Source of the DNA: Candidatus Altimarinota bacterium | GTDB taxonomy: Bacteria > Patescibacteriota > Gracilibacteria > CAIRYL01 | Assembly (NCBI GenBank): GCA_965250085.1 | Contig: OZ252287.1 | Span: 928,001 to 992,000, forward strand | Direction of reading: 5' to 3' | DNA length: 64,000 nucleotides | Part shown: positions 7,701 through 19,119 of the stretch, piece by piece | Layout: every line of letters begins with the position of its first letter | How positions within the stretch are numbered: position 1 is the stretch's first letter | Translations under genes and position numbers: made by a program | The notes under the pieces: generated by a model | What the model saw: the letters and a program-made list of their open reading frames with translations, nothing else | Database searches by the model: none | What the model was told of the DNA's origin: nothing

Positions 7701-9167
7701 ATTGAGTTCAATATCACCGTTAAAATCAAGATATGATGACGATACAAGAGATTCTCCATCGTGAAGATCATGAAGGCCATGATTAAGAGGTATTACTTCT
7801 TCTGTCAGATCGCCATTCCCCTGATTCAGGTACAGCTTCATTTCATACTCATCATTTCCTACATATCGATTAGCAAAATAATCTTGCCAGCCATCGCTAT
7901 TATAATCGCCAAAAATATAGTGGTAGAGTCTATTTTGCCAATGTCCCCCTAAATTCGGATCCCAATAAGCCGGAAAATCAAGAGAGAATGACCGGGAACC
8001 ATCATAGGATTCATACTCAAACACAGTGGGAGGAAGGGACAGCTCACTTCCATTGGAGACCCCCTTTTGTTCTACGTTTTCCAGAAAAACAATGGTGTCC
8101 TGAGTGGCATAAGAAAATGTATACACGACTTTGTCTCCCGAAAATGGATCGATGACTTCTATCTGATCCAATACATCTCGTTGCTCCACCACTGGAAACA
8201 GTCTGGAATACGATGGGAGCATATCAAATTGTTCAATAGTGCCGGAAAAATAGGGTTCAAAACGAACTTCATAGGGCTGAGTTTCATTTCCATACACAAT
8301 ACGCTGTAAATAGACAGCTCCCTGACTTTTGGTATATTCATACGATATTGTATTGCCATTGGTATCTTTCATTTCCGTAACATACCAGGCGTACATCCTG
8401 CCTCCATCATCACTCTGCTCCCGTGCATCTGACATGGTTCCAAAACGATATATTGTGCCGGTAGCATCAATAATTTCCCAGGTATTATCTATTTTGAATT
8501 CATGGCGCACTACTCCAGCCTGTACCTTGGGAATGTACGTTCCATATCCATTGGCATCAATAGATTCAATGGTGAGTTCTCCACTGCCACCGGCAAAAGG
8601 AGAGAGGAAATTGTTGTTCGTGTACAGATCTTCTACCCCCGTGCGTGAGTATCGTTCTATCTTGGGAAGACTCAAACTCCATCCGGTGCCCAGTTCAGAA
8701 TTGACTTCTTTATTGCTGGCGGAATAGCTCAATTGAACTGAAGGAGTAAAGCCATTCCTTCCGGGTGGCACGAAAATGGGATATGAATACTGCACATCTC
8801 CGGTGAATTCACTCACGGTGTATTCACCACCGAGACCGACAACATTGCTCAAAGGATCCAAATTCATTTCTGGCACAAAGGTAAAATCATCATCTTGTCC
8901 GACTGCATTAGCAGATGAAGAAGCGGCAGACTCAAGAGATTCAGAATCTTGTGTTTCAAGAAGAGGTTCAGCAGAAGATAGTTCTTCGGAAGAATCTTCT
9001 CCAACAGGATTTTCCGCCTCATTGGTAGCAATTGATTCTTCTATAGCCTCTTGTGAATCCAATGTTACAGATTCATCTACCGTCGAAGCGTCCTGTGCAA
9101 ATGCGACAGGCAATATTCCTCCTTGAAGGAGGATAAAAGTACATAAAAAACATAATAATTTTTGCAT
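1797..9167 (-). CDS. Secreted RHS/YD-repeat polymorphic toxin (SpvB-like N-terminus, FG-GAP repeats, RHS core, alpha/beta-hydrolase toxin)
   Basis: Signal peptide (VAFAQ); SpvB/TcB-like YSYPIFVPPGRNGFTPSVQLSY...GTGWSL; DxNxDGxxD repeats; YD repeats; RHS core YKFTGKEKDEDTGLYYYEARYYD...DPDG; C-terminal IHGT...GHSHGG. Confidence 0.93.
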   Translation of the reverse strand: MQKLLCFLCTFILLQGGILPVAFAQDASTVDESVTLDSQEAIEESIATNEAENPVGEDSSEELSSAEPLLETQDSESLESAASSSANAVGQDDDFTFVPEMNLDPLSNVVGLGGEYTVSEFTGDVQYSYPIFVPPGRNGFTPSVQLSYSASNKEVNSELGTGWSLSLPKIERYSRTGVEDLYTNNNFLSPFAGGSGELTIESIDANGYGTYIPKVQAGVVRHEFKIDNTWEIIDATGTIYRFGTMSDAREQSDDGGRMYAWYVTEMKDTNGNTISYEYTKSQGAVYLQRIVYGNETQPYEVRFEPYFSGTIEQFDMLPSYSRLFPVVEQRDVLDQIEVIDPFSGDKVVYTFSYATQDTIVFLENVEQKGVSNGSELSLPPTVFEYESYDGSRSFSLDFPAYWDPNLGGHWQNRLYHYIFGDYNSDGWQDYFANRYVGNDEYEMKLYLNQGNGDLTEEVIPLNHGLHDLHDGESLVSSSYLDFNGDIELNHCVDDGNNQSDRFVCDPNEPFQWLLSENAEYKYGYFFLDVNKDSLLDAFNYGERRRNNTKDYIFYKNNGQGADRWLDEDDTNHAWYIPNDVYHQAGSTFIDINNDGLDDLVHDYQYEAFYDYDYENPIPGSFVESKKILLNTGEGWDDITEELILPARMYEQRGQDCNSSSTPGENSCEYDGYLADAKLMDINRDGLPDMYFQSLGMVYLNNGNGWEDAFIQRNDLKFGNPNNPDAHAVYDFTDINHDGIQEKYIRYRYREMDEGNISPELEDVIFDLPVLTSVTSPLGGSASFEYTPASSYTNADGSAANIELPIPRLTLSKLSTNDGLGNTSEINYEYTGGKMYRNHVQEQELLGFQTVTKTLPDGSKVVTEYEQGSPSQNFAGKGSLKNQKIYTPVGDVLQEVKNFYDIKPRGTNSYESLLEKNIALTYSEQSSVNYKATASEFSYDAYGNMTQQIDYGEVNAVDGAGNFTDIGSDTLTSNIEYALSTTDHILSLPKRQELLDNGGNVIGESKMYYDDLPLGQVSIGNRTERSQLSVVSSQQWISTKTQYNGYGLPTKITNPRGYDTNIIYDSVNLYPKTITNAKSHSTNYEYNYLFGVPTQVTDPNGAKSITVLDSLGRVVESRVTNPASPANEVTAATYSYNTSSVPNSVTTTTHTHTPSLFRKEGLGEILIEGIVYLDGFGRTIQTRTEAEGSNQYTVLSTQYDNRGNVEKQTLPTFETGSSYDSSQLQTPGSQLSYDTINRVTSITTPVGTTSTSYDQWSQTVTDANGHSKDFASDARGNLVQVTEHLDGSTFNTNYTYDQLNNLTKITDAKGNERSMTYDLLGRRLTMQDLHTSGDTTFGTWSYDYDANSNLISQIDPKDQEITYAYDELDRVLTESSRTLPAPDSQLQATYTYDLGTHGTGRLRRIVSSAVEKDYAYDILGRVLSESKDINATTYTTSFTYDLVGNQLSITYPDGKTAVEYGYGRAGQLETVSQCFSDSDIGMTNGCDGLSSSPVITNIDSSPIGRISQIDSANGVSTVNTYDINQIYRLTNKTTIVEAQNLEPLLQDISYTFDPVGNITQIVDASSTNSAKTVNYTYDDLDRLLSATVTNAANGDNYTREFTYDIIGNMLSHSEAGTYAYAGGGSATSSGTTANPHAVTQIITPKVKGKSQTVPYTYDKNGNLLSNDTWTHSWDYKDRMLSSTDGVSTVNYEYDEGGARVKKVNATSGKETIYVNEYSDIEDGEVKNFVSLPAGGMKVATLSNAEIVPGSPPPSGGGNGNGNGNGNGNGNNGRSSYLDIPSVFSSMLFSSAHAQGNIPPTFTFLFPAFDQDNGADQSFLITWTDSDPDDDASIDVRYHDGTEFVSVTSPLLSEDDTTDSFLWDTSAIPEGEYPLSAIIDDGVNAPVIAYSGGSVFVYHEGGGSGNTAPSLTIVEPDGTDDTADTSFGITWTDDDPDDDASLSFFSDADNSGADGRLLVATSEDDATDSYTWDTTDLLSGDYYVYGVIDDEVNPPVTVYSAGPVTVDHGDTGGTNNTPPTLTLVEPDGVDDTADTSFVITWTDSDPDDDASVSFFSDTDTEGFDGRSINEQGISEDDVSDSYTWDTSGLPEGDQYVYGVIDDGVNAPVMVYSSGAITVDHGNGGGGEPPAEGGTPAIVYHHADHLTGSNVDTDDMGNVLEVLDYYPYGDVRLDEQSSSYENDYKFTGKEKDEDTGLYYYEARYYDSGIGRFVSVDPIARYIPETFLTDPQQSNSYTYVRNNPLGAIDPDGLLTIFIHGTVLPRKDANPFSESYMKKASADLGDNKYINMRWSGGNNKSERSVAAMALAKYINEHYEFAEGEQLNIVGHSHGGNVAIEAINNERIRRNVDALVLLATPNRSDYELDTTNIHEVYNVYHVEDIVQWAGAEGTDEKPRHPWRGASGTSNLEFNQPLSYTQEKIDIHSWIRSDQAWSDIGTMIRSLRNRETIKKKQEEGSKE
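2766..3800 (-). repeat. Three ~105-aa acidic beta-domain repeats inside the Rhs gene
   Basis: NxPPxxxxxxPxxxxDxADxSFxITWTDxDPDDDAS...SxxWDT...IDDxVNxPV occurs three times. DNA similarity is visible (ATTGACCxCATCGTCAAT near 2860, 3195 and 3522). Confidence 0.85.
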
Positions 9168-11859: not shown

Positions 11860-12114
11860 CTACTGCCATTCACCAGAGATAAGGCGACTCTTTTTTGCAC
11901 GTGTCCATTTTTTAATCTGAATTTCGCGCTTACGTGCCTCAGACTTTGTTTCAAACAATTGGGAAGAGTACACCAACTGGAAAGGACCTTGATCCTTTGC
12001 AAATTGAGAACCCTTTCCAAGATTATGATCCTTGATGCGTCTCAGAGGATCTGGAGAGATCCCAGTATAAAATCTTCCCGTTCTTGCTTGGGCGATATAA
12101 ACATACCAAGACAT
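11860..12114 (-). CDS. Small GIY-YIG nuclease (UPF0213/YhbQ-like)
   Basis: WYVYI...FYTGIS...RRIKDHN.G...SEARKREIQIKKWTRAKK. Confidence 0.92.
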   Translation of the reverse strand: MSWYVYIAQARTGRFYTGISPDPLRRIKDHNLGKGSQFAKDQGPFQLVYSSQLFETKSEARKREIQIKKWTRAKKSRLISGEWQ

Positions 12115-12140
12115 TTTTATTTCTTAAAGATAAGATCGAG

Positions 12141-12292
12141 GCCCTTCGATAAATACAGCGTAGCTGTATTTACTCAGGGTCATTCGACTCTTAGAGAACG
12201 GTTTCCCCCTAGAGAATGGCTAACCCTTAAAGAATGGTTTCCCCTTAGAGAATGGTTTACCATGAGCGATCCCGCAAAGCGGGAGAGTCGAA
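12141..12292. repeat. REP-like hairpins plus four 18-bp tandem repeats between tRNA-Leu and the GIY-YIG gene
   Basis: CCCTTCGA-TAAATACAGC/GCTGTATTTA-CTCAGGG hairpin; CATTCGACTC...GAGTCGAATG inverted repeat; 18-mers (consensus TTAGAGAATGGTTTCCCC) at 12191, 12209, 12227 and 12245. Confidence 0.85.
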
Positions 12293-12379
12293 TGGTGCCG
12301 ATGGAGAGACTCGAACTCTCACGAACCGAAGTTCACAGGCACCTGAAGCCTGCGTGTCTACCAATTCCACCACATCGGC
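12293..12379 (-). tRNA. tRNA-Leu(CAG)
   Basis: GCCGATG acceptor stem, GGAATTGGTAGAC D-arm, CAGGC-TTCAGGT-GCCTG anticodon arm, long variable arm, GTTCGAGT T-loop, encoded CCA. Confidence 0.97.
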
Positions 12380-12480
12380 GCAAAAAGTATTGTGGCAGAA
12401 ATAAAATATTTCGTCACGAAAAACCCGCCTCTGACATTCCTGTCAAAAGCGAATTATTCGGTCTTAAAATCGAGGAAAAA

Positions 12481-12726
12481 TTATCCCATATTCTCTCCAC
12501 CACCCTTCTTGTGGCAAGGGCATTTGTGAGCGAAGAGTTTCATTACTCCAGCAACACCAATAAGGAGATAGACGATATTTTCTACCGCCGGCATGCTCCC
12601 CAAGAGCATGTTGACAACATTCCAATTGCCGCCAAAAAAATGACTAAGGCCTACAAGACCCCAGTTGAGCGCTCCAATAACTACCAAGAGGCAGATGAGC
12701 TTACACATACTGCAAGGCTTTGACAT
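12481..12726 (-). CDS. DUF378 family small membrane protein
   Basis: LVVIGALNWGLVG...IVYLLIGVAG. Confidence 0.92.
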   Translation of the reverse strand: MSKPCSMCKLICLLVVIGALNWGLVGLSHFFGGNWNVVNMLLGSMPAVENIVYLLIGVAGVMKLFAHKCPCHKKGGGENMG

Positions 12727-12932: not shown

Positions 12933-14447
12933 TCAGAACCGCGACCGGTATTGCAGCGCTTCAGCAACATGCTGTTTCTCAATATTTTTTTCTTTCGTAA
13001 GATCTGCAATAGTTCGCGCGACCTTTAGAATCCGATGGAACCCTCGGGCAGATAAATTCATCTGGCCCATAGCCATGCGAAGAATTTCTTTTGTCTGCAG
13101 GTCAACTCCGCAAAATTTTTTTACTTCTTCCACATGCATCTGCGCATTTGAAAAAATGGAAGACTCCTGAAATCTTTGCACTTGTATGTCACGAGCTTTT
13201 TGAACACGTTCTCGAATTCTACTGGAGCTTTCAGAAGGATGGTCTCCTGTGAGTTTTTCAAATTGGACCGGTGCGACATCTATATACAGATCTATACGAT
13301 CGAGTAATGGACCAGAAAGCTTCTTTCGATATTTAGGATCAATCTCAAATGAGGTTCCATCAGAACCAGGATCATACCCAGATGGACTCGGATTCATAGC
13401 GGCAATAAGGAGAAAGTTGCACGGAAAAGAAGCACTGCCACTTGCGCGAGAAATGGTGATGGTCCTGTCTTCAAGCGGCTGCCTCAAAACCTCAAGAGTA
13501 CTGGCGGGGAACTCCGCGAGTTCATCGAGAAAAAGGACTCCATGATGAGCGAGAGATATTTCTCCCGGACGAGGATCTTTGCCACCCCCCACCAAAGACA
13601 CACTCGACGCGGTATGGTGTACAACTCGGAAGGGACGAGCAGAAATAAGTGGAGATTCTGGCGGAAGAAGATTTGCTATGGAATAAATTTTTGTTGCCTC
13701 GAGTGCTTCTTCTTTTGTCATTTGTGGAAGAATGGATCGCACAGCGCGCGCCATGAGGGTCTTTCCAGACCCAGGGGTGCCATTCATAAGGATGTTGTGA
13801 CCACCTGCAGCGGCAATTTCCAGAGCTCTTTTGGCATTTTCCTGCCCTTTAATAGAAGCAAAGTCCTGAAGAGATTCTTCGCCCACTTCTATATCGTGCA
13901 TCTGAGTGGTAGGAGTGGGATCAAGAGCTTTCTCTCCCAGAAGGTGTGACAAAACCTCCAGGAAATTTTCGGCACCATAGACCTCAATACCTTCGACCAA
14001 GGCAGCCTCTTTGGCATTTACTTTGGGCAAAAAAACACGAGTATATCCTCTTTTTTTTGCCTCTGTGCAAATGGGAAGAACGCCATTTATGCTCCGCAAA
14101 TTACCATCAAGAGCCAATTCTCCAAGAAAGATGCTTTCCTGAAACACATTCGAAGAAACTTCCAGCTGATTATTAATAATAGTAATTCCCAGGGCAATAG
14201 GAAGATCAAACCCCGGACCAATTTTTCGAATGTCAGCTGGAGCTAAATTGACGGTAATACGAGTGCTGGGGAATCGAAACCCTGAATTTTTCACAGCTGA
14301 ACGAACTCTTTCTTTTGCTTCCTGAACAGCAGTGTCGCCCAACCCTACAATAAAGAATTTCGGCATGCCTCTGGCAACATCAACTTCAACTTCTACGGGG
14401 AGGCACTCCAGTCCCCGGACGGCCATGGAGTGAATTTTTATTGGCAT
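12933..14447 (-). CDS. comM: YifB/ComM Mg-chelatase-like AAA+ ATPase
   Basis: VGLGDTAVQEAKERVRSA, TVNLAPAD, GTPGSGKT Walker A, PGEISLAHHGVLFLDE, LSARGFHRILKVARTIADL. Start set at MPIKI. Confidence 0.95.
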   Translation of the reverse strand: MPIKIHSMAVRGLECLPVEVEVDVARGMPKFFIVGLGDTAVQEAKERVRSAVKNSGFRFPSTRITVNLAPADIRKIGPGFDLPIALGITIINNQLEVSSNVFQESIFLGELALDGNLRSINGVLPICTEAKKRGYTRVFLPKVNAKEAALVEGIEVYGAENFLEVLSHLLGEKALDPTPTTQMHDIEVGEESLQDFASIKGQENAKRALEIAAAGGHNILMNGTPGSGKTLMARAVRSILPQMTKEEALEATKIYSIANLLPPESPLISARPFRVVHHTASSVSLVGGGKDPRPGEISLAHHGVLFLDELAEFPASTLEVLRQPLEDRTITISRASGSASFPCNFLLIAAMNPSPSGYDPGSDGTSFEIDPKYRKKLSGPLLDRIDLYIDVAPVQFEKLTGDHPSESSSRIRERVQKARDIQVQRFQESSIFSNAQMHVEEVKKFCGVDLQTKEILRMAMGQMNLSARGFHRILKVARTIADLTKEKNIEKQHVAEALQYRSRF

Positions 14448-14590
14448 GAGCATTCTTAAAAAATCCTTCATACCAAAACAAAAATTTACACAGAGAGGGA
14501 AGAAAAAAAGGTAAAAACTTAAGAAGTGCTTAATAATTTCTTTAAAACTTTTCTTAAGAAACGTTTGATTTTAAAAAATTCGTGCAATAC

Positions 14591-14622
14591 AAAAAAAGCA
14601 CAGCAAGCTGTACTCTTTTTGT
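14591..14622 (-). terminator. Intrinsic terminator, minus strand
   Basis: Minus strand reads AGTACAGC-TT-GCTGTGCT followed by a T run. One stem position is a G-U pair only on this strand. Confidence 0.7.
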
Positions 14623-15140
14623 TTGTGTATTTGTTCTGATAGTTCCGGCATCGGAAGACACGAAAGTGCTTGAGCGCGGAGTCAGAAACTTCATTGACGA
14701 GATGAAAATTCTCCACTGGCCTGGGGAAGTGTTTTGGTCTTTCCGTGACCTGCTCCATGGGTGTTCTTCGCGTCTCTCGGCAACCAGGGCTGAAAGGGAA
14801 AAACGGAGCAATTTTCGGTGTGGAATCTAGAGATCGTCGAGGTCTAAAGATCCGCATCGGAAAGTAAAGAAAGGAGAGCCTCTTCTCTATCCGCTCAAGA
14901 CAAATATTTTTTCTTCATGTGTGGTCGGAGAGAAGAACGGCTCACCTTTTCTCACTTTCTCGAAAGAGGAGAAAAGGATTGATATCAAGTGGTGGAAAGG
15001 AACAGGGGGTATGTATTTGTATTCTTTTATCCTTTTATATGAGGATGTATATTTGTTTTGAAGGGTTTTGAAACGAGTGGGAGAAGAAAGTGAAGACCGT
15101 TGTCGAAGGTTCGTTAGCCCATTTCTATCTCAACGTTTCA
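14623..15140. ncRNA. Candidate large structured ncRNA or leader, family not recognised
   Basis: No credible ORF, GC-richer than its flanks, at least eight hairpins, bounded by a minus-strand promoter and terminator. The functional strand is ambiguous (see findings). Confidence 0.55.
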
Positions 15141-15144
15141 GGCA

Positions 15145-15173
15145 ATCGTATCAAACGAAATACAAATTGTCAA
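15145..15173 (-). promoter_or_regulatory. sigma70-type promoter firing toward comM
   Basis: TTGACA (15173-15168)-17 bp-TACGAT (15150-15145). Confidence 0.75.
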
Positions 15174-15415
15174 CAGAAACCAATTGCGATATTCTATAAA
15201 CATTTCAAAAGGACACTTTAAAAAAAAATCAAAAATTCTAATATCAAAATCTGAAACAAAATCAAATGTTCAAAATTCAAAAAAATAGCAGAGATGAATG
15301 TTTTTAAAGTTAATTTTTTTAAGAATCAAAATTTGTTTTGAAATTCCGATTTCGCACTGTTTCGAATATATTGAAAATTATGCAGGTGTATACTCTATGC
15401 GTATTTTTTCACACA

Positions 15416-16273
15416 ATGATTCCAGGGCTTCTCCTTGTCAACAAACCATCGGGGAAAACGAGCTTTGACGTCATTCAGCAAATTCGAAAGACACTCAACA
15501 CAAAAAAAGTAGGTCACGCGGGGACACTCGATCGCTTTGCCACAGGTCTTGTTGTCGTAGCAGTTGGAGAAGCCACAAAGGTCCTCTCTGAGCTTCTTTT
15601 GTCAGACAAAACATATATCGCGGAACTTCACTTTGGGATTACTTCTGATACTGATGATTCGGAAGGAGAAAAGATAATCATGCCAAATATTAAGAAGTTT
15701 TCTCGATCAGATTTGCAGAGCGTACTCTCCAAATTTTTGGGAAAAATTCAGCAAATGCCCCCACTCTATTCAGCACTGAAATCTCAGGGAAAACGACTTT
15801 CTGATCGCGTCCGACGCGGAGAAGATATGCAAGTAATTCAACAGCAGAAAACAAGGGAGGTTGAAATACTCTCCATAGAAATTCTTGAATTTGCATTTCC
15901 AAAAGTGACGATAGAGGTGCAATGTGGCAGCGGAACATATGTTCGCTCTTTGGCACGAGATCTCGGAAAGGAAATGCAAACAGGAGCGCATCTTTCCGCC
16001 CTTCAAAGAACTCAGATTTGGCCCTTCCGTATTATCAATGCAAAATCCCCTGATGAGATTCATCGAGAGGACGTCTTGCCATTACAACCAATTTTTTTTC
16101 CATTTCCCAGCCGAGAAATTTCAAAACAAGAAGCACATGATATTCGGCATGGAAAATCAATCTTTTTAAAAGGAGTACACTCGGGAAAAGTAAGTCTGTT
16201 TCATGAAAGAGCACTTGTGGCGTTTGCAGAAGAGGAACAAGGAAAAATATTTCCCAAACGAGTATTTCTCTAA
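15416..16273 (+). CDS. truB: tRNA pseudouridine(55) synthase
   Basis: NKPSGKTSFD, KVGHAGTLDRFATG, QMPPLYSALK, CGSGTYVRSLARDLG. Start set at MIPGLL. Confidence 0.96.
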   Translation: MIPGLLLVNKPSGKTSFDVIQQIRKTLNTKKVGHAGTLDRFATGLVVVAVGEATKVLSELLLSDKTYIAELHFGITSDTDDSEGEKIIMPNIKKFSRSDLQSVLSKFLGKIQQMPPLYSALKSQGKRLSDRVRRGEDMQVIQQQKTREVEILSIEILEFAFPKVTIEVQCGSGTYVRSLARDLGKEMQTGAHLSALQRTQIWPFRIINAKSPDEIHREDVLPLQPIFFPFPSREISKQEAHDIRHGKSIFLKGVHSGKVSLFHERALVAFAEEEQGKIFPKRVFL

Positions 16274-16276
16274 AAC

Positions 16277-17242
16277 TTATTCCACAAAGGTCAGCCATTT
16301 TTTATATTTTTCCTTCCCGTTAAGACCCTCAATATCTCCGTGAACGATTCGCAAATAGAACTCGCTCAATTGAGCGGTAATTGCCCCAATAGTACCATCG
16401 CCTATTATATGACGTCCTTCTGGAGATACTGCATTTGGATTTATAGTAATACTTCCTATTGGTTTTACTTCCGCGGCAGTTCCAGTAAAAAACATTTCAT
16501 CTGCGAGCAGGAGTTCTTCGGGAAGGATGTTTCGCACTTCTGTACTGATGCCCAGTTCAAGCTTGGCAATAGTCATAATTGTACCGCGGGTAAATCCAGG
16601 GAGAATATGGTCTTCTTTAGGAGTGATGAGTTTTCCATTTTTTATCAAGAAAATATTGGTTCCAGGACCTTCTGCAACATTTCCGTCTACTGAGTCTAAC
16701 TGGAGAGCTTCATCGAACCCTCTTTTGTTCCTGGCATCTCTACTTGCTCTGCGTCCATTTCCATAATTCTGACTCACCTTTGCCTTCATATCTGCTGTGT
16801 CAGGATGCAGGCGTCGTATTTTTGAAATACCAACATTGAGGACCCCCTCAAGATATGAGAACGGCTCTACAAAGGCAGAAAAATGAACAGAAAGATCATT
16901 TTCGTGAAGACCAAGTTTTTCTGGTCGCCAAAATCCAGGCCGAATATAACGATCTTTTTTCTCCACTTCTCTAGCAGCACGAACAAGCTCTAAAATCGCT
17001 TCTCGAACTTGATCTCTGGACAGAGTCATCACCATGTCCTCAGATTCTGCAGAATGAAAAAGACGATCGACACAATCATCGAGGCGGAAGATAACGGCTC
17101 TTCCGTCATCCATCTCTCTGACCCGAATGCCATCCCAAGCTTTACCTGCGTATTCGACACTATGGCTCCCAACAGAAATCCGAGCCTCCTCTTCGGGGAC
17201 AAGTTCATCGATATGCCATACGGGAACACCTTTTTCTGGCAT
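16277..17242 (-). CDS. ilvE: Class IV PLP aminotransferase (branched-chain amino acid aminotransferase-like)
   Basis: AKVSQNY catalytic Lys, VAEGPGTNIF, ILPGFTR, EMFFTGTAAEV. Confidence 0.85.
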   Translation of the reverse strand: MPEKGVPVWHIDELVPEEEARISVGSHSVEYAGKAWDGIRVREMDDGRAVIFRLDDCVDRLFHSAESEDMVMTLSRDQVREAILELVRAAREVEKKDRYIRPGFWRPEKLGLHENDLSVHFSAFVEPFSYLEGVLNVGISKIRRLHPDTADMKAKVSQNYGNGRRASRDARNKRGFDEALQLDSVDGNVAEGPGTNIFLIKNGKLITPKEDHILPGFTRGTIMTIAKLELGISTEVRNILPEELLLADEMFFTGTAAEVKPIGSITINPNAVSPEGRHIIGDGTIGAITAQLSEFYLRIVHGDIEGLNGKEKYKKWLTFVE

Positions 17243-17400
17243 TTTATAAATCAAAAACAGGAGCGCAATTATTCACATTATTGTGCCAATTGTCAATTTA
17301 GAAACAAGATCAAAGTGAGATACAAACGAGATCTATTGCCAAGTAAAAAATTGACAACATCTTTTTAAAATAGTTTAATAGATATCCTGTTACTATTTTT

Positions 17401-19119
17401 ATGGCAAAATCTCTTGAAGGATCTTCTGCATTGTCGCTATCTTCATTAGCAATGGAAGAGTTTTTTAGCCATGCAACGACGCAAGAACTAATGAAGGGAA
17501 TACTATCCGATTCAGACGATGAATCGCGTGCCTTAGAACAAATATTAAAAAATCCTCAACTTTTATTGCAATTATATGCGGACTGTATGCAGGTACGCAT
17601 AGAAGATGTTCCGTTTGAAAAGATAGAAAGCATCAGACTCTTTTTTCACGAACGCATTGCCACCCTCTGTCTTAAAAATCAAGAAACAAAGCAGTATGAG
17701 ATACAGCATCTTCAGTTCTTTCAAGAACATGCCCTCATGTTCATGGCTAATGGTTTTGTGCCCGTGTTGTGTGGAGAGAGGGATAATGCATGGGGAGCTC
17801 CCCTATATCCACTTTATGGAAGGATTGGAGGAGAAACGAATGGAACAGCATTTCCAGCCGAGCATATTAAACTTCTCAAGCTTCCTGAAGGAATAACAAT
17901 GGCTGATTTTGTGGAGCCTGCTGACAGAGAAGAGGTGATGCAAAAAGCGCAGAAAGGAACTCTGGGATTTAGCGAAGAGAACATAGCTCCGTATATGAGC
18001 GTACTTACGATGTCCGCGCATCGACAAGAAGGTCAGATCGATCATGTGGAATGTTCAAGCCCCATCACGGTTCCCATTGGAAATATTGCATCACATCCAC
18101 TAGAACAAGTGAGGCAGTATGGGACAGGGCTTTTTGAAGGGATGGCAGCAGAAAGAGGTCCTGATGGAGATATATATATTTTTGGACTGCAAAATCATTG
18201 GAAAAGAATGAACAAGGGAGCTGTCTTTCTCGGAATGCCAAAGGTTCCGATGGAAGCTTTTAAAAAAATGGTGATAGACACCATAAGAGCCAATGTGGAT
18301 TCCATCCCTCCGGCGGGGCAGGGAAGACTGTATCTTCGCCCCAATCTCTGGGACCATGGAGAGAAGATACACGTCGATACGTCTGATAAGTGTTTTGCGC
18401 TTTTGATTTCTGCCGTTACGATTGGAAGTCTGGAGAGTTATTTTGCCAAAGGAGAAAAAATATTTTTTATGCCTACAAATTTTCATCGAGCGGTAGACAG
18501 AGGCCTTGGCCAAACAAAGGCTATCGGGAACTACTCAGGCACTATTCAGCTTTTACAAAAGCTTGAGCAGCACAGGATGCATGGAGTGGTCTTTCTTGAT
18601 CCAAAGCAAAAGCGGATAGAAGAAACAAATGCATCTGGCGTGATTTTCATTCAGAAGACAAAAGACGGAGACTATCGGATCATTACACCAAGTCTCAAGC
18701 ACCAGACGATTCTGGACAGCATTACCCGAAAAACAATACTGGCTCTTGCCAAAGATAAGGGATGGGAAGTCGAAGAAAAAGATATCCATCCAGATGAAAT
18801 CTACGCGCTCACCCAAGAAGATGCAGAAGAACCAATTGTTGAAATGTATGCCATAGGAACTGGCGCAGGAATGGCTCCAGTTAATAAGCTTCAAATGGGA
18901 ACATTTACTATTGATGATGAAACAGGAGAAGGGTATTTGAAAAAAGAGGGGAAACCTCTTGTGGTCAGTGAGTATGATTTACAAAATCCATGGGGAGAAG
19001 CCGGAAAAATAATTTTAGAAAAATTACTCAAGGCAAAAAATGGAGTACTGGCAACAGAACACCCAGAAAAAGAATATTTACAGTGGGTAACAAGGATCAG
19101 CCTTGATTCCACAGACTAA
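17401..19119 (+). CDS. Class IV aminotransferase (BCAT-like) with a ~190-aa unrecognised N-terminal extension
   Basis: QYGTGLFEGM, LYLRP, TKAIGNY, IEETNAS, ILDSITR, AIGTGAG. Confidence 0.82.
   Translation: MAKSLEGSSALSLSSLAMEEFFSHATTQELMKGILSDSDDESRALEQILKNPQLLLQLYADCMQVRIEDVPFEKIESIRLFFHERIATLCLKNQETKQYEIQHLQFFQEHALMFMANGFVPVLCGERDNAWGAPLYPLYGRIGGETNGTAFPAEHIKLLKLPEGITMADFVEPADREEVMQKAQKGTLGFSEENIAPYMSVLTMSAHRQEGQIDHVECSSPITVPIGNIASHPLEQVRQYGTGLFEGMAAERGPDGDIYIFGLQNHWKRMNKGAVFLGMPKVPMEAFKKMVIDTIRANVDSIPPAGQGRLYLRPNLWDHGEKIHVDTSDKCFALLISAVTIGSLESYFAKGEKIFFMPTNFHRAVDRGLGQTKAIGNYSGTIQLLQKLEQHRMHGVVFLDPKQKRIEETNASGVIFIQKTKDGDYRIITPSLKHQTILDSITRKTILALAKDKGWEVEEKDIHPDEIYALTQEDAEEPIVEMYAIGTGAGMAPVNKLQMGTFTIDDETGEGYLKKEGKPLVVSEYDLQNPWGEAGKIILEKLLKAKNGVLATEHPEKEYLQWVTRISLDSTD

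What the first reader, a model, noticed from the sequence alone, without database searches (positions are those of the whole stretch)
14591..15173. ~550-nt structured non-coding unit whose transcription signals and folding signals favour opposite strands
Seen: a minus-strand promoter TTGACA-17-TACGAT (15173-15145) predicts a start near 15139, exactly where a 72-nt hairpin (TGAAACG...CGTTTCA) begins. A minus-strand terminator sits at 14622-14591, and there is no credible ORF between them. The interior is densely paired: TTCTGAT/GTCAGAA (14634/14681) closing two hairpins; TGCTCC/GGAGCA; TTTTCGGTGTGGA/TCCGCATCGGAAA (14812/14851); GAGCCTCTTCTCT..CCG/CGG.AGAGAAGA..GGCTC (14876/14926); CCTTTTCTC/GAGAAAAGG (14945-14977). 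The 14812-14863 arm has four G-U pairs on the + strand that would be A-C mismatches on the transcribed strand, and two stems carry GAAA loops on +. A couple of positions favour minus instead. RNase P and tmRNA hallmark motifs are absent. Inference: an unrecognised large ncRNA with an antisense partner, a long attenuating leader for comM, or a template whose complementary ssDNA/cDNA copy is the folded species. No reverse transcriptase is present in this window.
Basis: partly seen in the sequence, partly recalled or inferred. Interest (0 to 1): 0.8.

Follow-up and report, generated by a model that had tools for sequence, protein, structure and literature searches.

The report
New large structured RNA gene
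The gap between comM and truB holds a stand-alone gene for a roughly 550-base, intricately folded non-coding RNA that matches no catalogued RNA family and is conserved in part of a group of tiny-genome (candidate phyla radiation) bacteria; what it does is unknown.

Summary
Window 15140-14591, minus strand, is a stand-alone gene of about 550 nt for a structured non-coding RNA. It has a near-consensus promoter, a 5' hairpin and a 3' terminator hairpin.

A covariance model of its core finds full-length homologs in 17 of 20 genomes of the order and 24 of 151 genomes sampled from the class. It finds none outside the window's own family in a 151-genome phylum sample.

The helices covary: 89% of cells pair against 65% when shuffled, and 66 of 69 pairs change on both sides. 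I also found a covarying kissing loop between two hairpin loops, in 26 of 26 sequences, which 0 of 5000 permutations matched.

The "opposite strands" paradox dissolves:
- promoter, terminator and C>G composition all lie on the minus strand in the homologs;
- G-U outnumbers A-C 187 to 53 on that strand;
- the plus strand's lower energy comes from its G/U-rich composition.

No Rfam 15 family matches. It is not RNase P RNA, tmRNA, SRP RNA or 6S RNA. It is not a comM leader, because neighbours vary. It is not a reverse-transcriptase template, because the RT does not co-occur. Function is unknown; my best guess is a stable trans-acting RNA that binds a protein partner.

The parts
15145..15173 (-). 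Sigma-70-type promoter: -35 TTGACA (15173-15168), 17-nt spacer, TG-extended -10 TACGAT (15150-15145)
   Evidence: 10 of 12 positions, TG present. The same layout, a -10 followed 2-6 nt later by TGAWW, is found in 23 of 27 homologous loci. Two of the four without it are cut by contig ends.
14591..15140 (-). Whole predicted RNA, about 550 nt. Start at about 15140-15138 (yUGAAAC), end in the U-run 14597-14591.
   Evidence: nhmmer matches to G001 and G004 at E about 1e-44 over the whole length. Single copy in this genome.
15069..15140 (-). P1: 5'-terminal 72-nt hairpin, UGAAACG (15140-15134) pairing with CGUUUCA (15075-15069)
   Evidence: A 5' UGAAAC or UGAUU hairpin start is seen in the homologs.
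14990..15068 (-). A/C-rich, G-poor linker with little predicted structure (41-nt G-free run from about 15072 to 15032)
   Evidence: Present in most homologs with variable length. In G000 the run length is not exceptional for the genome: 8.5% of 2488 genome windows have a run as long.
14860..14959 (-). P3: long, nearly perfect hairpin; its length varies between families
   Evidence: Helices 2-4 of model R1: 87-90% of cells paired, 29 of 31 pairs changed on both sides; window coordinates.
14823..14853 (-). P4 hairpin; its loop carries kissing-loop strand a, GACGA at 14838-14834
   Evidence: Helices 5-6 (92% and 83% paired, 10 of 10 pairs changed on both sides); loop complementarity; coordinates.
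14751..14810 (-). P5: UGCUCC (14810-14805) pairs with GGAGCA (14756-14751) and encloses a variable hairpin
   Evidence: Helix 7 (97.5% paired, 6 of 6 pairs changed on both sides). For G000 the true register was read from the sequence, because the model alignment is shifted there.
14736..14750 (-). P6: GGUC/GACC hairpin with a 7-nt loop ACGGAAA (invariant GG). Together with the following AAAA..CC..AG..CAGC junction (14735-14707) this is the most conserved sequence of the family.
   Evidence: Helix 9 (97% paired; CG 14, GC 9, AU 2 at the closing pair); alignments.
14690..14706 (-). P7 hairpin; its loop carries kissing-loop strand b, UCGUC at 14700-14696
   Evidence: Helix 11: 26 of 26 sequences have at least 4 contiguous complementary bases with the P4 loop; a further 5 of 5 sequences read by eye.
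14634..14687 (-). 3' domain: closing stem UUCUGA(C)/(A)UCAGAA around internal hairpins
   Evidence: RNAalifold on A1, columns 477-482 with 531-536, with changes on both sides. A comparable closing stem is readable in more distant homologs.
14591..14622 (-). Intrinsic-terminator-like hairpin flanked by an A-run and a U7 run
   Evidence: All 23 homologs with defined ends have a T6+ run 67-120 nt after the core. Not listed by the simple scan.

Best explanation
SHOWN
- This is a stand-alone gene for a non-coding RNA of about 550 nt, read from the window's minus strand.
- Transcription would start at about 15139 from a strong sigma-70-type promoter and end at the hairpin plus U-run at 14622-14591.
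- The sequence conserves a 5' hairpin, a long variable hairpin (P3), and a conserved core of four helices (P4-P7). A kissing interaction between the P4 and P7 loops is predicted to tie the core together.
- The core keeps a set of nearly invariant unpaired bases around the P6 hairpin.
- The RNA belongs to a family that is not in Rfam 15 and that I found in no paper.
- The family is restricted to some families of one class of small-genome bacteria. One relative's record is titled Candidatus Gracilibacteria.

INFERRED, NOT SHOWN
- It acts in trans as a stable, abundant, folded RNA whose conserved core is a binding or active site.
- Most likely it is the RNA part of a ribonucleoprotein or a protein-binding RNA (about 0.4).
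- Less likely it is a base-pairing regulator that uses its C-rich single strands (about 0.15) or a ribozyme (about 0.1).
- Its 5' and 3' terminal hairpins would protect it from exonucleases.
For: Homologs: full-length model matches in 17 of 20 genomes of the order, 24 of 151 of a class sample with R1 and 26 of 151 with the sequence-only model R2.

Covariation:
- 89.1% of 1803 cells pair, against 65.4% in shuffles (0 of 500 shuffles reach it).
- 66 of 69 pairs change on both sides.
- Slid controls give 37-52% pairing.

Kissing loop:
- 20 distinct sequence types; cognate mean 5.1 nt against 3.71 +/- 0.17 in derangements, 0 of 5000 reaching it.
- 5 of 5 further sequences fit by eye.

Strand:
- A -10 element followed by TGAWW in 23 of 27 loci, and a T6+ run after the core in all 23 with defined ends.
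- C>G in 23 of 23.
- G-U 187 against A-C 53.
- 6 kissing-loop types need G-U on this strand.
- The RNAalifold covariation term is -4.28 on minus against -0.74 on plus.

Stand-alone and non-coding:
- Neighbours differ between genomes.
- No conserved ORF.
- No Rfam match in the window or in 15 homolog loci.
Against: - No expression data. No RNA run is available, so the transcript, its ends and its abundance are predictions.
- All genomes other than the window's own are draft assemblies of unnamed organisms.
- The pair counts were made on an alignment fitted to the model and its strand, which leans towards both.
- Two positions flanking P4 carry conserved A-C juxtapositions that would be G-U on the plus strand. 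The raw folding energy is lower on the plus strand (-172.6 against -140.6 kcal/mol).
- The simple scan did not call the terminator.
- The distribution is patchy: 0 of 31 genomes in a sister family, and most families of the class are negative. This may reflect limits of the models.
- Nothing I ran points to a particular partner or activity. The functional part is inference only.
Confidence: 0.85

Rival explanations
1. It is a long cis-acting leader or attenuator that controls comM downstream on the same strand.
For: comM (12933-14471, minus) starts 120 nt after the terminator hairpin in this genome. In G001 a long ORF lies downstream on the same strand.
Against: The element ends in its own conserved terminator. 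In G004 the next gene is on the opposite strand. In 11 more distant genomes the flanking genes are unrelated: ECF sigma factor, Pif1 helicase, ferredoxin, M23 peptidase, MgtC, Mur ligase, LGT, AcrB and others.
Confidence: 0.02
2. The plus strand, an antisense RNA or a reverse-transcribed ssDNA/cDNA copy is the folded functional species.
For: The MFE is lower on the plus strand. A-C juxtapositions flanking P4 on the minus strand are conserved. One RT gene exists in the genome.
Against: Promoter and terminator orientation is conserved on the minus strand. G-U outnumbers A-C 187 to 53 on minus. Kissing-loop G-U pairs work only on minus. The z-score is better on minus. The RT is about 375 kb away, and relatives of it occur in only 4 of 20 genomes of the order, against 17 of 20 for the RNA.
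Confidence: 0.03
3. It is a functional stand-in for 6S RNA and sequesters RNA polymerase.
For: No 6S RNA was found in this genome, and it was found in 0 of 7 genomes of family f1 and 1 of 7 of f2. The RNA has a strong promoter and contains a long rod-like hairpin.
Against: Eight genomes hold both this RNA and a 6S match at E<=0.001: G029, G046, G069, G079, G088, G123, G137, G144. Four of those 6S matches are above Rfam's cut-off. The long hairpin has no central bubble and is short in family f12. The conserved part is a multi-helix core with a kissing loop, unlike 6S.
Confidence: 0.05
4. It is the RNA of a mobile element or prophage, as many ROOL and GOLLD RNAs are.
For: Six genomes have two copies. 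In G130 a roughly 530-nt direct duplication flanks 5.7 kb of genes with no Pfam match.
Against: It is single-copy in G000, between the housekeeping genes comM and truB. There is no match in 50,697 phage records. The one IMG/VR pattern hit is not a homolog. The distribution follows taxonomy: f1 6 of 7, f2 6 of 7, f12 7 of 13 with R1 and 11 of 13 with R2.
Confidence: 0.05
5. It is a very divergent copy of a universal RNA: RNase P RNA, tmRNA or SRP RNA.
For: Its size and its housekeeping-type promoter. No SRP RNA was found in the genome.
Against: RNase P RNA (189 bits) and tmRNA (108 bits) are found elsewhere in the genome. ARAGORN finds nothing here. Ffh and FtsY are not found in the genome, and no real SRP54-domain match occurs in 151 genomes of the class, so an SRP RNA would have no partner.
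Confidence: 0.01

Closest known systems
OLE RNA (ornate, large, extremophilic; Firmicutes). Properties recalled, not from a call.
   Same: A stand-alone bacterial ncRNA of several hundred bases, with many covarying helices and conserved unpaired bases, a lineage-restricted distribution, and a function not obvious from sequence.
   Different: No match to any Rfam model, which includes OLE. Different phylum. No conserved neighbouring genes, whereas OLE sits in a conserved gene neighbourhood with partner protein genes (recalled).
ROOL and GOLLD RNAs (large ornate RNAs, often in prophages). Properties recalled.
   Same: The size class, the elaborate fold with tertiary contacts, and the occasional second copy in a genome.
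   Different: No Rfam match. Not found in phage records. The distribution follows host taxonomy, and in G000 the gene lies between housekeeping genes.
raiA motif RNA (Firmicutes and Actinobacteria). Properties recalled.
   Same: A stand-alone structured ncRNA of unknown function. The raiA motif is often found near competence genes, and here comM is adjacent in G000 and probably G001.
   Different: No Rfam match. About 2.5 times longer. The link to comM is not conserved.
6S RNA
   Same: Housekeeping-type promoter, a predicted abundant trans-acting RNA, and a long helical element.
   Different: Different architecture, and it coexists with 6S in 8 genomes.
RNase P RNA and tmRNA
   Same: Comparable size, a stand-alone gene with a strong promoter and a terminator, and long-range tertiary pairing.
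   Different: Both are encoded elsewhere in this genome. There is no tRNA-like domain.

Membership tests
Any Rfam 15 family (4227 models, including OLE, GOLLD, ROOL, HEARO, raiA, 6S, SRP, RNase P, tmRNA) | Covariance-model score at or above the family's gathering threshold | tested here: not met
   Whole window: only 2 tRNAs. Region 14400-15450 at E<=10: 17 weak matches, the best 25.1 bits against a cut-off of 60 (a microRNA model). 15 homologous loci: 0 matches.
RNase P RNA | It is the genome's match to the RNase P model | tested here: not met
   The match (189.3 bits) lies at G000:C1:557071-557527, not in the window.
tmRNA | tRNA-like domain plus tag reading frame; model match | tested here: not met
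   The tmRNA match (108.3 bits) lies at C1:672461-672908. ARAGORN finds no gene in 14400-15400.
SRP RNA (4.5S or large) | Model match, and presence of the partner protein Ffh | tested here: not met
   No match to the small or large SRP RNA models in the genome. No SRP_SPB or SRP54 domain. No ORF combining DTAGR with a P-loop. Only weak P-loop-only matches in 30 of 151 class genomes.
6S RNA | Model match, or at least mutually exclusive occurrence with bona fide 6S | tested here: not met
   No 6S match in G000. Eight genomes carry both a 6S match and this RNA.
Retron or other RT-templated RNA | A reverse transcriptase encoded next to the RNA, or co-occurring with it | tested here: not met
   One RVT_1 gene lies at C1:567331-568296, about 375 kb away. 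Relatives occur in 4 of 20 genomes of the order, against 17 of 20 for the RNA.
Cis-regulatory leader or riboswitch | A conserved downstream gene on the same strand, with no independent terminator before it | tested here: not met
   A conserved terminator ends the element, and the downstream genes differ.
Large ornate stand-alone bacterial ncRNA (an operational class, not a homology family) | Over 400 nt, many covarying helices, a tertiary or pseudoknot contact, no ORF, and its own transcription signals | tested here: met
   Lengths of 371-701 nt in the 23 homologs with defined ends; the 701-nt value rests on a doubtful promoter call. Covariation. Kissing loop. No conserved ORF. Promoter and terminator.

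The most novel reading that the evidence does not exclude
This is the first lineage-specific large ornate RNA of the candidate phyla radiation. On this reading it is an indispensable ribonucleoprotein or ribozyme core, kept in roughly 1-Mb genomes that have shed even the signal recognition particle. Its kissing-loop-locked core with invariant unpaired bases would perform a catalytic or machine-like task not yet known for RNA in bacteria.
Probability: 0.2. Interest if true: 0.9.

Novelty: categorically new. Interest (0 to 1): 0.78.

Why it matters
New classes of large, intricately folded bacterial RNAs are rare. Each earlier one (OLE, GOLLD, ROOL, raiA; recalled) opened a line of structural and functional work.

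This one comes from bacteria with genomes of about 1-1.5 Mb, where 550 bases kept under strong structural constraint suggest an important job. It gives a concrete, testable object: defined ends, a secondary-structure model, and a covarying tertiary contact that can be tested by compensatory mutation.

The concept of a large ornate RNA is known. What is new is the family, so 'categorically new' here means no known family or mechanism fits. It does not mean a new function has been shown.

Tried and rejected
- BLAST with the window sequence found only 3 relatives among 41 genomes. One of them (G006, 35 nt) was not confirmed by nhmmer. The covariance model was needed to see the family.
- The pattern scans with a 25-nt degenerate motif were unproductive. 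Genome contigs gave 17 hits, of which only 1 is a real homolog, identical in score to G001. Viral contigs gave 1 hit, not a homolog. Metagenome contigs gave 21 hits, none a homolog.
- RNAalifold found no consensus pair on the MAFFT alignment A6, so model R2 is sequence-only.
- Sequencing runs: no RNA holder listed. The 4 holders are contigs from one study, so I did not lay reads.
- Hfq and CsrA were not found in G000, so sponge models for those proteins were dropped.
- I first thought the G-free A/C-rich linkers were a strong signal. In G000 the 41-nt run is matched or exceeded in 8.5% of genome windows, so I keep it only as a consistent strand bias.
- An alternative pairing of 14977-14969 with 14953-14945 is perfect in G000 and present in its family, but it is not family-wide: 90 of 2000 permutations reach the observed mean.
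- The duplicated copies in G130 flank genes with no Pfam match, which told me nothing about function.
- Literature searches listed no paper on such an RNA. I saw only the search listings and abstract starts, plus one passage of PMC8080830. Subscription-journal papers and supplements were not searched.

Full report
WHAT IS AT THE SITE

The finding lies in the 866-nt gap between comM (12933-14471, minus; Mg_chelatase/ChlI domains) and truB (15338-16273, plus).

- The minus-strand promoter TTGACA-17-TACGAT, with TG before the -10, is at 15173-15145. It is the best of four promoter-like sites in the region.
- The minus-strand sequence begins, about 6 nt after the -10, with UGAAACG. This pairs with CGUUUCA 60 nt further on to give a 72-nt hairpin.
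- At 14622-14591 there is a hairpin followed by U7. The simple terminator scan did not list it, probably because the preceding A-run pairs with the U-run.
- Neither longer ORF in the region has a Pfam match.
- Both strands fold better than all 100 dinucleotide shuffles. The z-score is -3.68 on minus and -2.75 on plus, although the raw energy is lower on plus.

IT IS A CONSERVED FAMILY

BLAST found relatives in only two other genomes of the family, G001 and G004. A third short hit was not confirmed. nhmmer aligned G001 and G004 over essentially the whole element at E about 1e-44.

I built a covariance model of the 282-nt core (R1). Its results were:
- 17 of 20 genomes of the order matched, most as full-length matches. 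A few were weak (18-24 bits) or cut by contig ends.
- 24 of 151 genomes sampled from the class matched, in families f1, f2, f12, f10, f5 and f34.
- In a 151-genome sample of the phylum only G000 and one genome of its own family matched.
- 0 of 31 genomes of sister family f9 matched.

A sequence-only model of the most conserved 88 positions (R2) matched 26 of 151 class genomes: f1 6 of 7, f2 5 of 7, f12 11 of 13.

Six genomes have two copies. G000 has one.

One relative's public record is titled Candidatus Gracilibacteria bacterium. G000 itself reads TGA as stop: table-11 stop-to-stop frames of at least 200 aa cover 85% of the genome.

WHICH STRAND

Across the family every independent signal points to minus.

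- Promoter: a -10 element followed 2-6 nt later by TGAWW, with a -35 match, is found upstream of the core in 23 of 27 loci. The -35 match is 6 of 6 in six loci, 5 of 6 in seven, 4 of 6 in seven, 3 of 6 in two, and a doubtful 2 of 6 in one. Two of the four loci without it are cut by contig ends.
- Terminator: all 23 loci with defined ends have a T6+ run 67-120 nt after the core. In the loci I read, a hairpin precedes it.
- Composition: the RNA strand has C>G in 23 of 23, with G at 10-21%.
- Pair types: in the model-aligned pairs, G-U occurs 187 times and A-C 53 times on this strand.
- Kissing loop: six of the loop types need a G-U pair that would be A-C on the other strand.
- RNAalifold: on the three close sequences the covariation term is -4.28 on minus and -0.74 on plus, while the plain folding term is better on plus.

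So the plus strand's better raw energy is a composition effect. The RNA is rich in C and A, its complement is rich in G and U, and the complement can therefore add wobble pairs.

Two positions flanking P4 are A-C juxtapositions in 17 of 27 and 11 of 27 sequences. The five-pair extension they belong to is not well kept on either strand. I read it as a conserved non-canonical junction rather than as evidence for a plus-strand fold. This remains unexplained.

STRUCTURE

On the model alignment 89.1% of 1803 cells form standard pairs, against 65.4% in shuffles. 66 of 69 pairs have changes on both sides. Sliding the partners by 1-3 columns drops pairing to 37-52%. The alignment was fitted to the model, which leans towards it.

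Reading the aligned loops, I noticed that the P4 loop and the P7 loop are complementary, and that the complementarity changes together:
- GACGA/UCGUC in G000
- GACCA/UGGUC in G001
- GACCG/CGGUC in G004
- GACUA/UAGUC in family f12
- GAACG/CGUUC in three f2 genomes
- GAGCCA/UGGUUC in G015
- others besides

All 26 sequences have at least 4 contiguous complementary bases. Over the 20 distinct types the mean is 5.1, against 3.71 +/- 0.17 in 5000 derangements, none of which reaches it. Six of the 52 loops were corrected by hand. Five further sequences not used to form the idea all fit by eye, but all are of the GACUA/UAGUC type.

The most conserved sequence is the P6 hairpin, a 4-bp covarying stem with a 7-nt loop holding an invariant GG. 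It is followed by the junction AAAA..CC..AG..CAGC.

STAND-ALONE AND NON-CODING

The gene sits divergently beside a truB-sized ORF in G001 and G004 as it does beside truB in G000 (those two ORFs were not scanned against Pfam). Beyond them the neighbours are unrelated. The 20 flanking ORFs of 11 more distant loci include an ECF sigma factor, a Pif1-like helicase, a ferredoxin, an M23 peptidase, MgtC, a Mur ligase, LGT and AcrB. The longest ORFs on either strand differ in length and sequence among the 23 homologs.

KNOWN FAMILIES EXCLUDED

- No Rfam 15 family reaches threshold in the window, in the region at E<=10, or in 15 homologous loci.
- RNase P RNA and tmRNA are elsewhere in the genome.
- SRP RNA, Ffh and FtsY were not found in the genome. 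No real SRP54-domain match was seen in 151 genomes of the class. A passage of PMC8080830 states that two SRP subunits are absent in many CPR bacteria, so that loss is already in print.
- 6S RNA was not found in G000, but it coexists with this RNA in eight genomes, so this RNA is not a general replacement for 6S.
- The one reverse transcriptase is distant and does not co-occur with the RNA.
- There is no match in phage records.

HOW IT LIKELY WORKS

Shown: transcription signals, fold, a tertiary contact, and independence from neighbouring genes.

Inferred: a stable RNA, capped by hairpins at both ends and made from a near-consensus promoter, that acts in trans through a compact core displaying invariant unpaired bases.

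I rate a protein-binding or ribonucleoprotein role as most likely (about 0.4). A base-pairing role through the C-rich single strands comes next (about 0.15), then catalysis (about 0.1). Nothing I ran discriminates between these.

CAVEATS

- No expression data exist for this organism in the runs on offer.
- The relatives are unnamed draft assemblies.
- The family's limits depend on two models of modest reach.
- The literature searches cover open-access text only, and for all but one paper I saw only listings and abstract starts.

Noticed in passing
whole genome G000 (outside the window) and 151 genomes of its class: No Ffh, FtsY or SRP RNA. There is no SRP54 or SRP_SPB domain and no ORF with DTAGR plus a P-loop in G000. 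Only weak P-loop-only matches occur in 30 of 151 class genomes, while all 14 control genomes ring. A passage in PMC8080830 says SRP subunits are absent in many CPR bacteria, so this is known.
   Followed up: partly
window 14843-14853 and 14818-14823 (flanks of P4): Conserved A-C and C-A juxtapositions on the RNA strand, in 17 of 27 and 11 of 27 sequences. They would be G-U pairs on the other strand. Possibly a non-canonical junction; unexplained.
   Followed up: partly
window 14969-14977 with 14945-14953: An upstream pyrimidine tract, CCUUUUCUC, is perfectly complementary to part of the 5' arm of the long hairpin and competes with that hairpin's own 3' arm. It appears in the window's family only: G000, G001, G004, G005, G006, G008. 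It could be a folding intermediate or a switch. The permutation test is weak, with 90 of 2000 permutations reaching the observed value.
   Followed up: partly
L118 (G130:C35:19000-30500), 2184-2713 and 7862-8387: The RNA gene is duplicated as a direct repeat of about 530 nt, 5.67 kb apart. The repeat flanks four ORFs without Pfam matches, two of them paralogs.
   Followed up: partly
G000:C1:567331-568296 (outside the window): A lone 322-aa reverse transcriptase (RVT_1, 63 bits) beside ORFs without Pfam matches and a DUF4256 gene. Its type was not determined.
   Followed up: partly
whole genome G000: The genome reads TGA as stop: table-11 frames cover 85% of the genome. Yet one family member's record is titled Candidatus Gracilibacteria, a group better known for reading UGA as glycine (recalled).
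   Followed up: partly
window 16277-17254 (-) and 17401-19119 (+): Two divergent class-IV aminotransferase-fold genes lie next to truB. The second is 572 aa, with an N-terminal 240 residues that have no Pfam match.
   Followed up: no
window 11959-12723 (+) overlapping tRNA 12296-12379 (-): A 254-aa ORF without a Pfam match overlaps a tRNA gene on the other strand, so it is probably not a gene.
   Followed up: no
L035 / G002:C14:9272-9619: A degenerate RT-like fragment (5 TGA and 1 TAA inside, E 6e-5) lies about 1.4 kb downstream of the RNA gene in G002. Probably coincidence.
   Followed up: no
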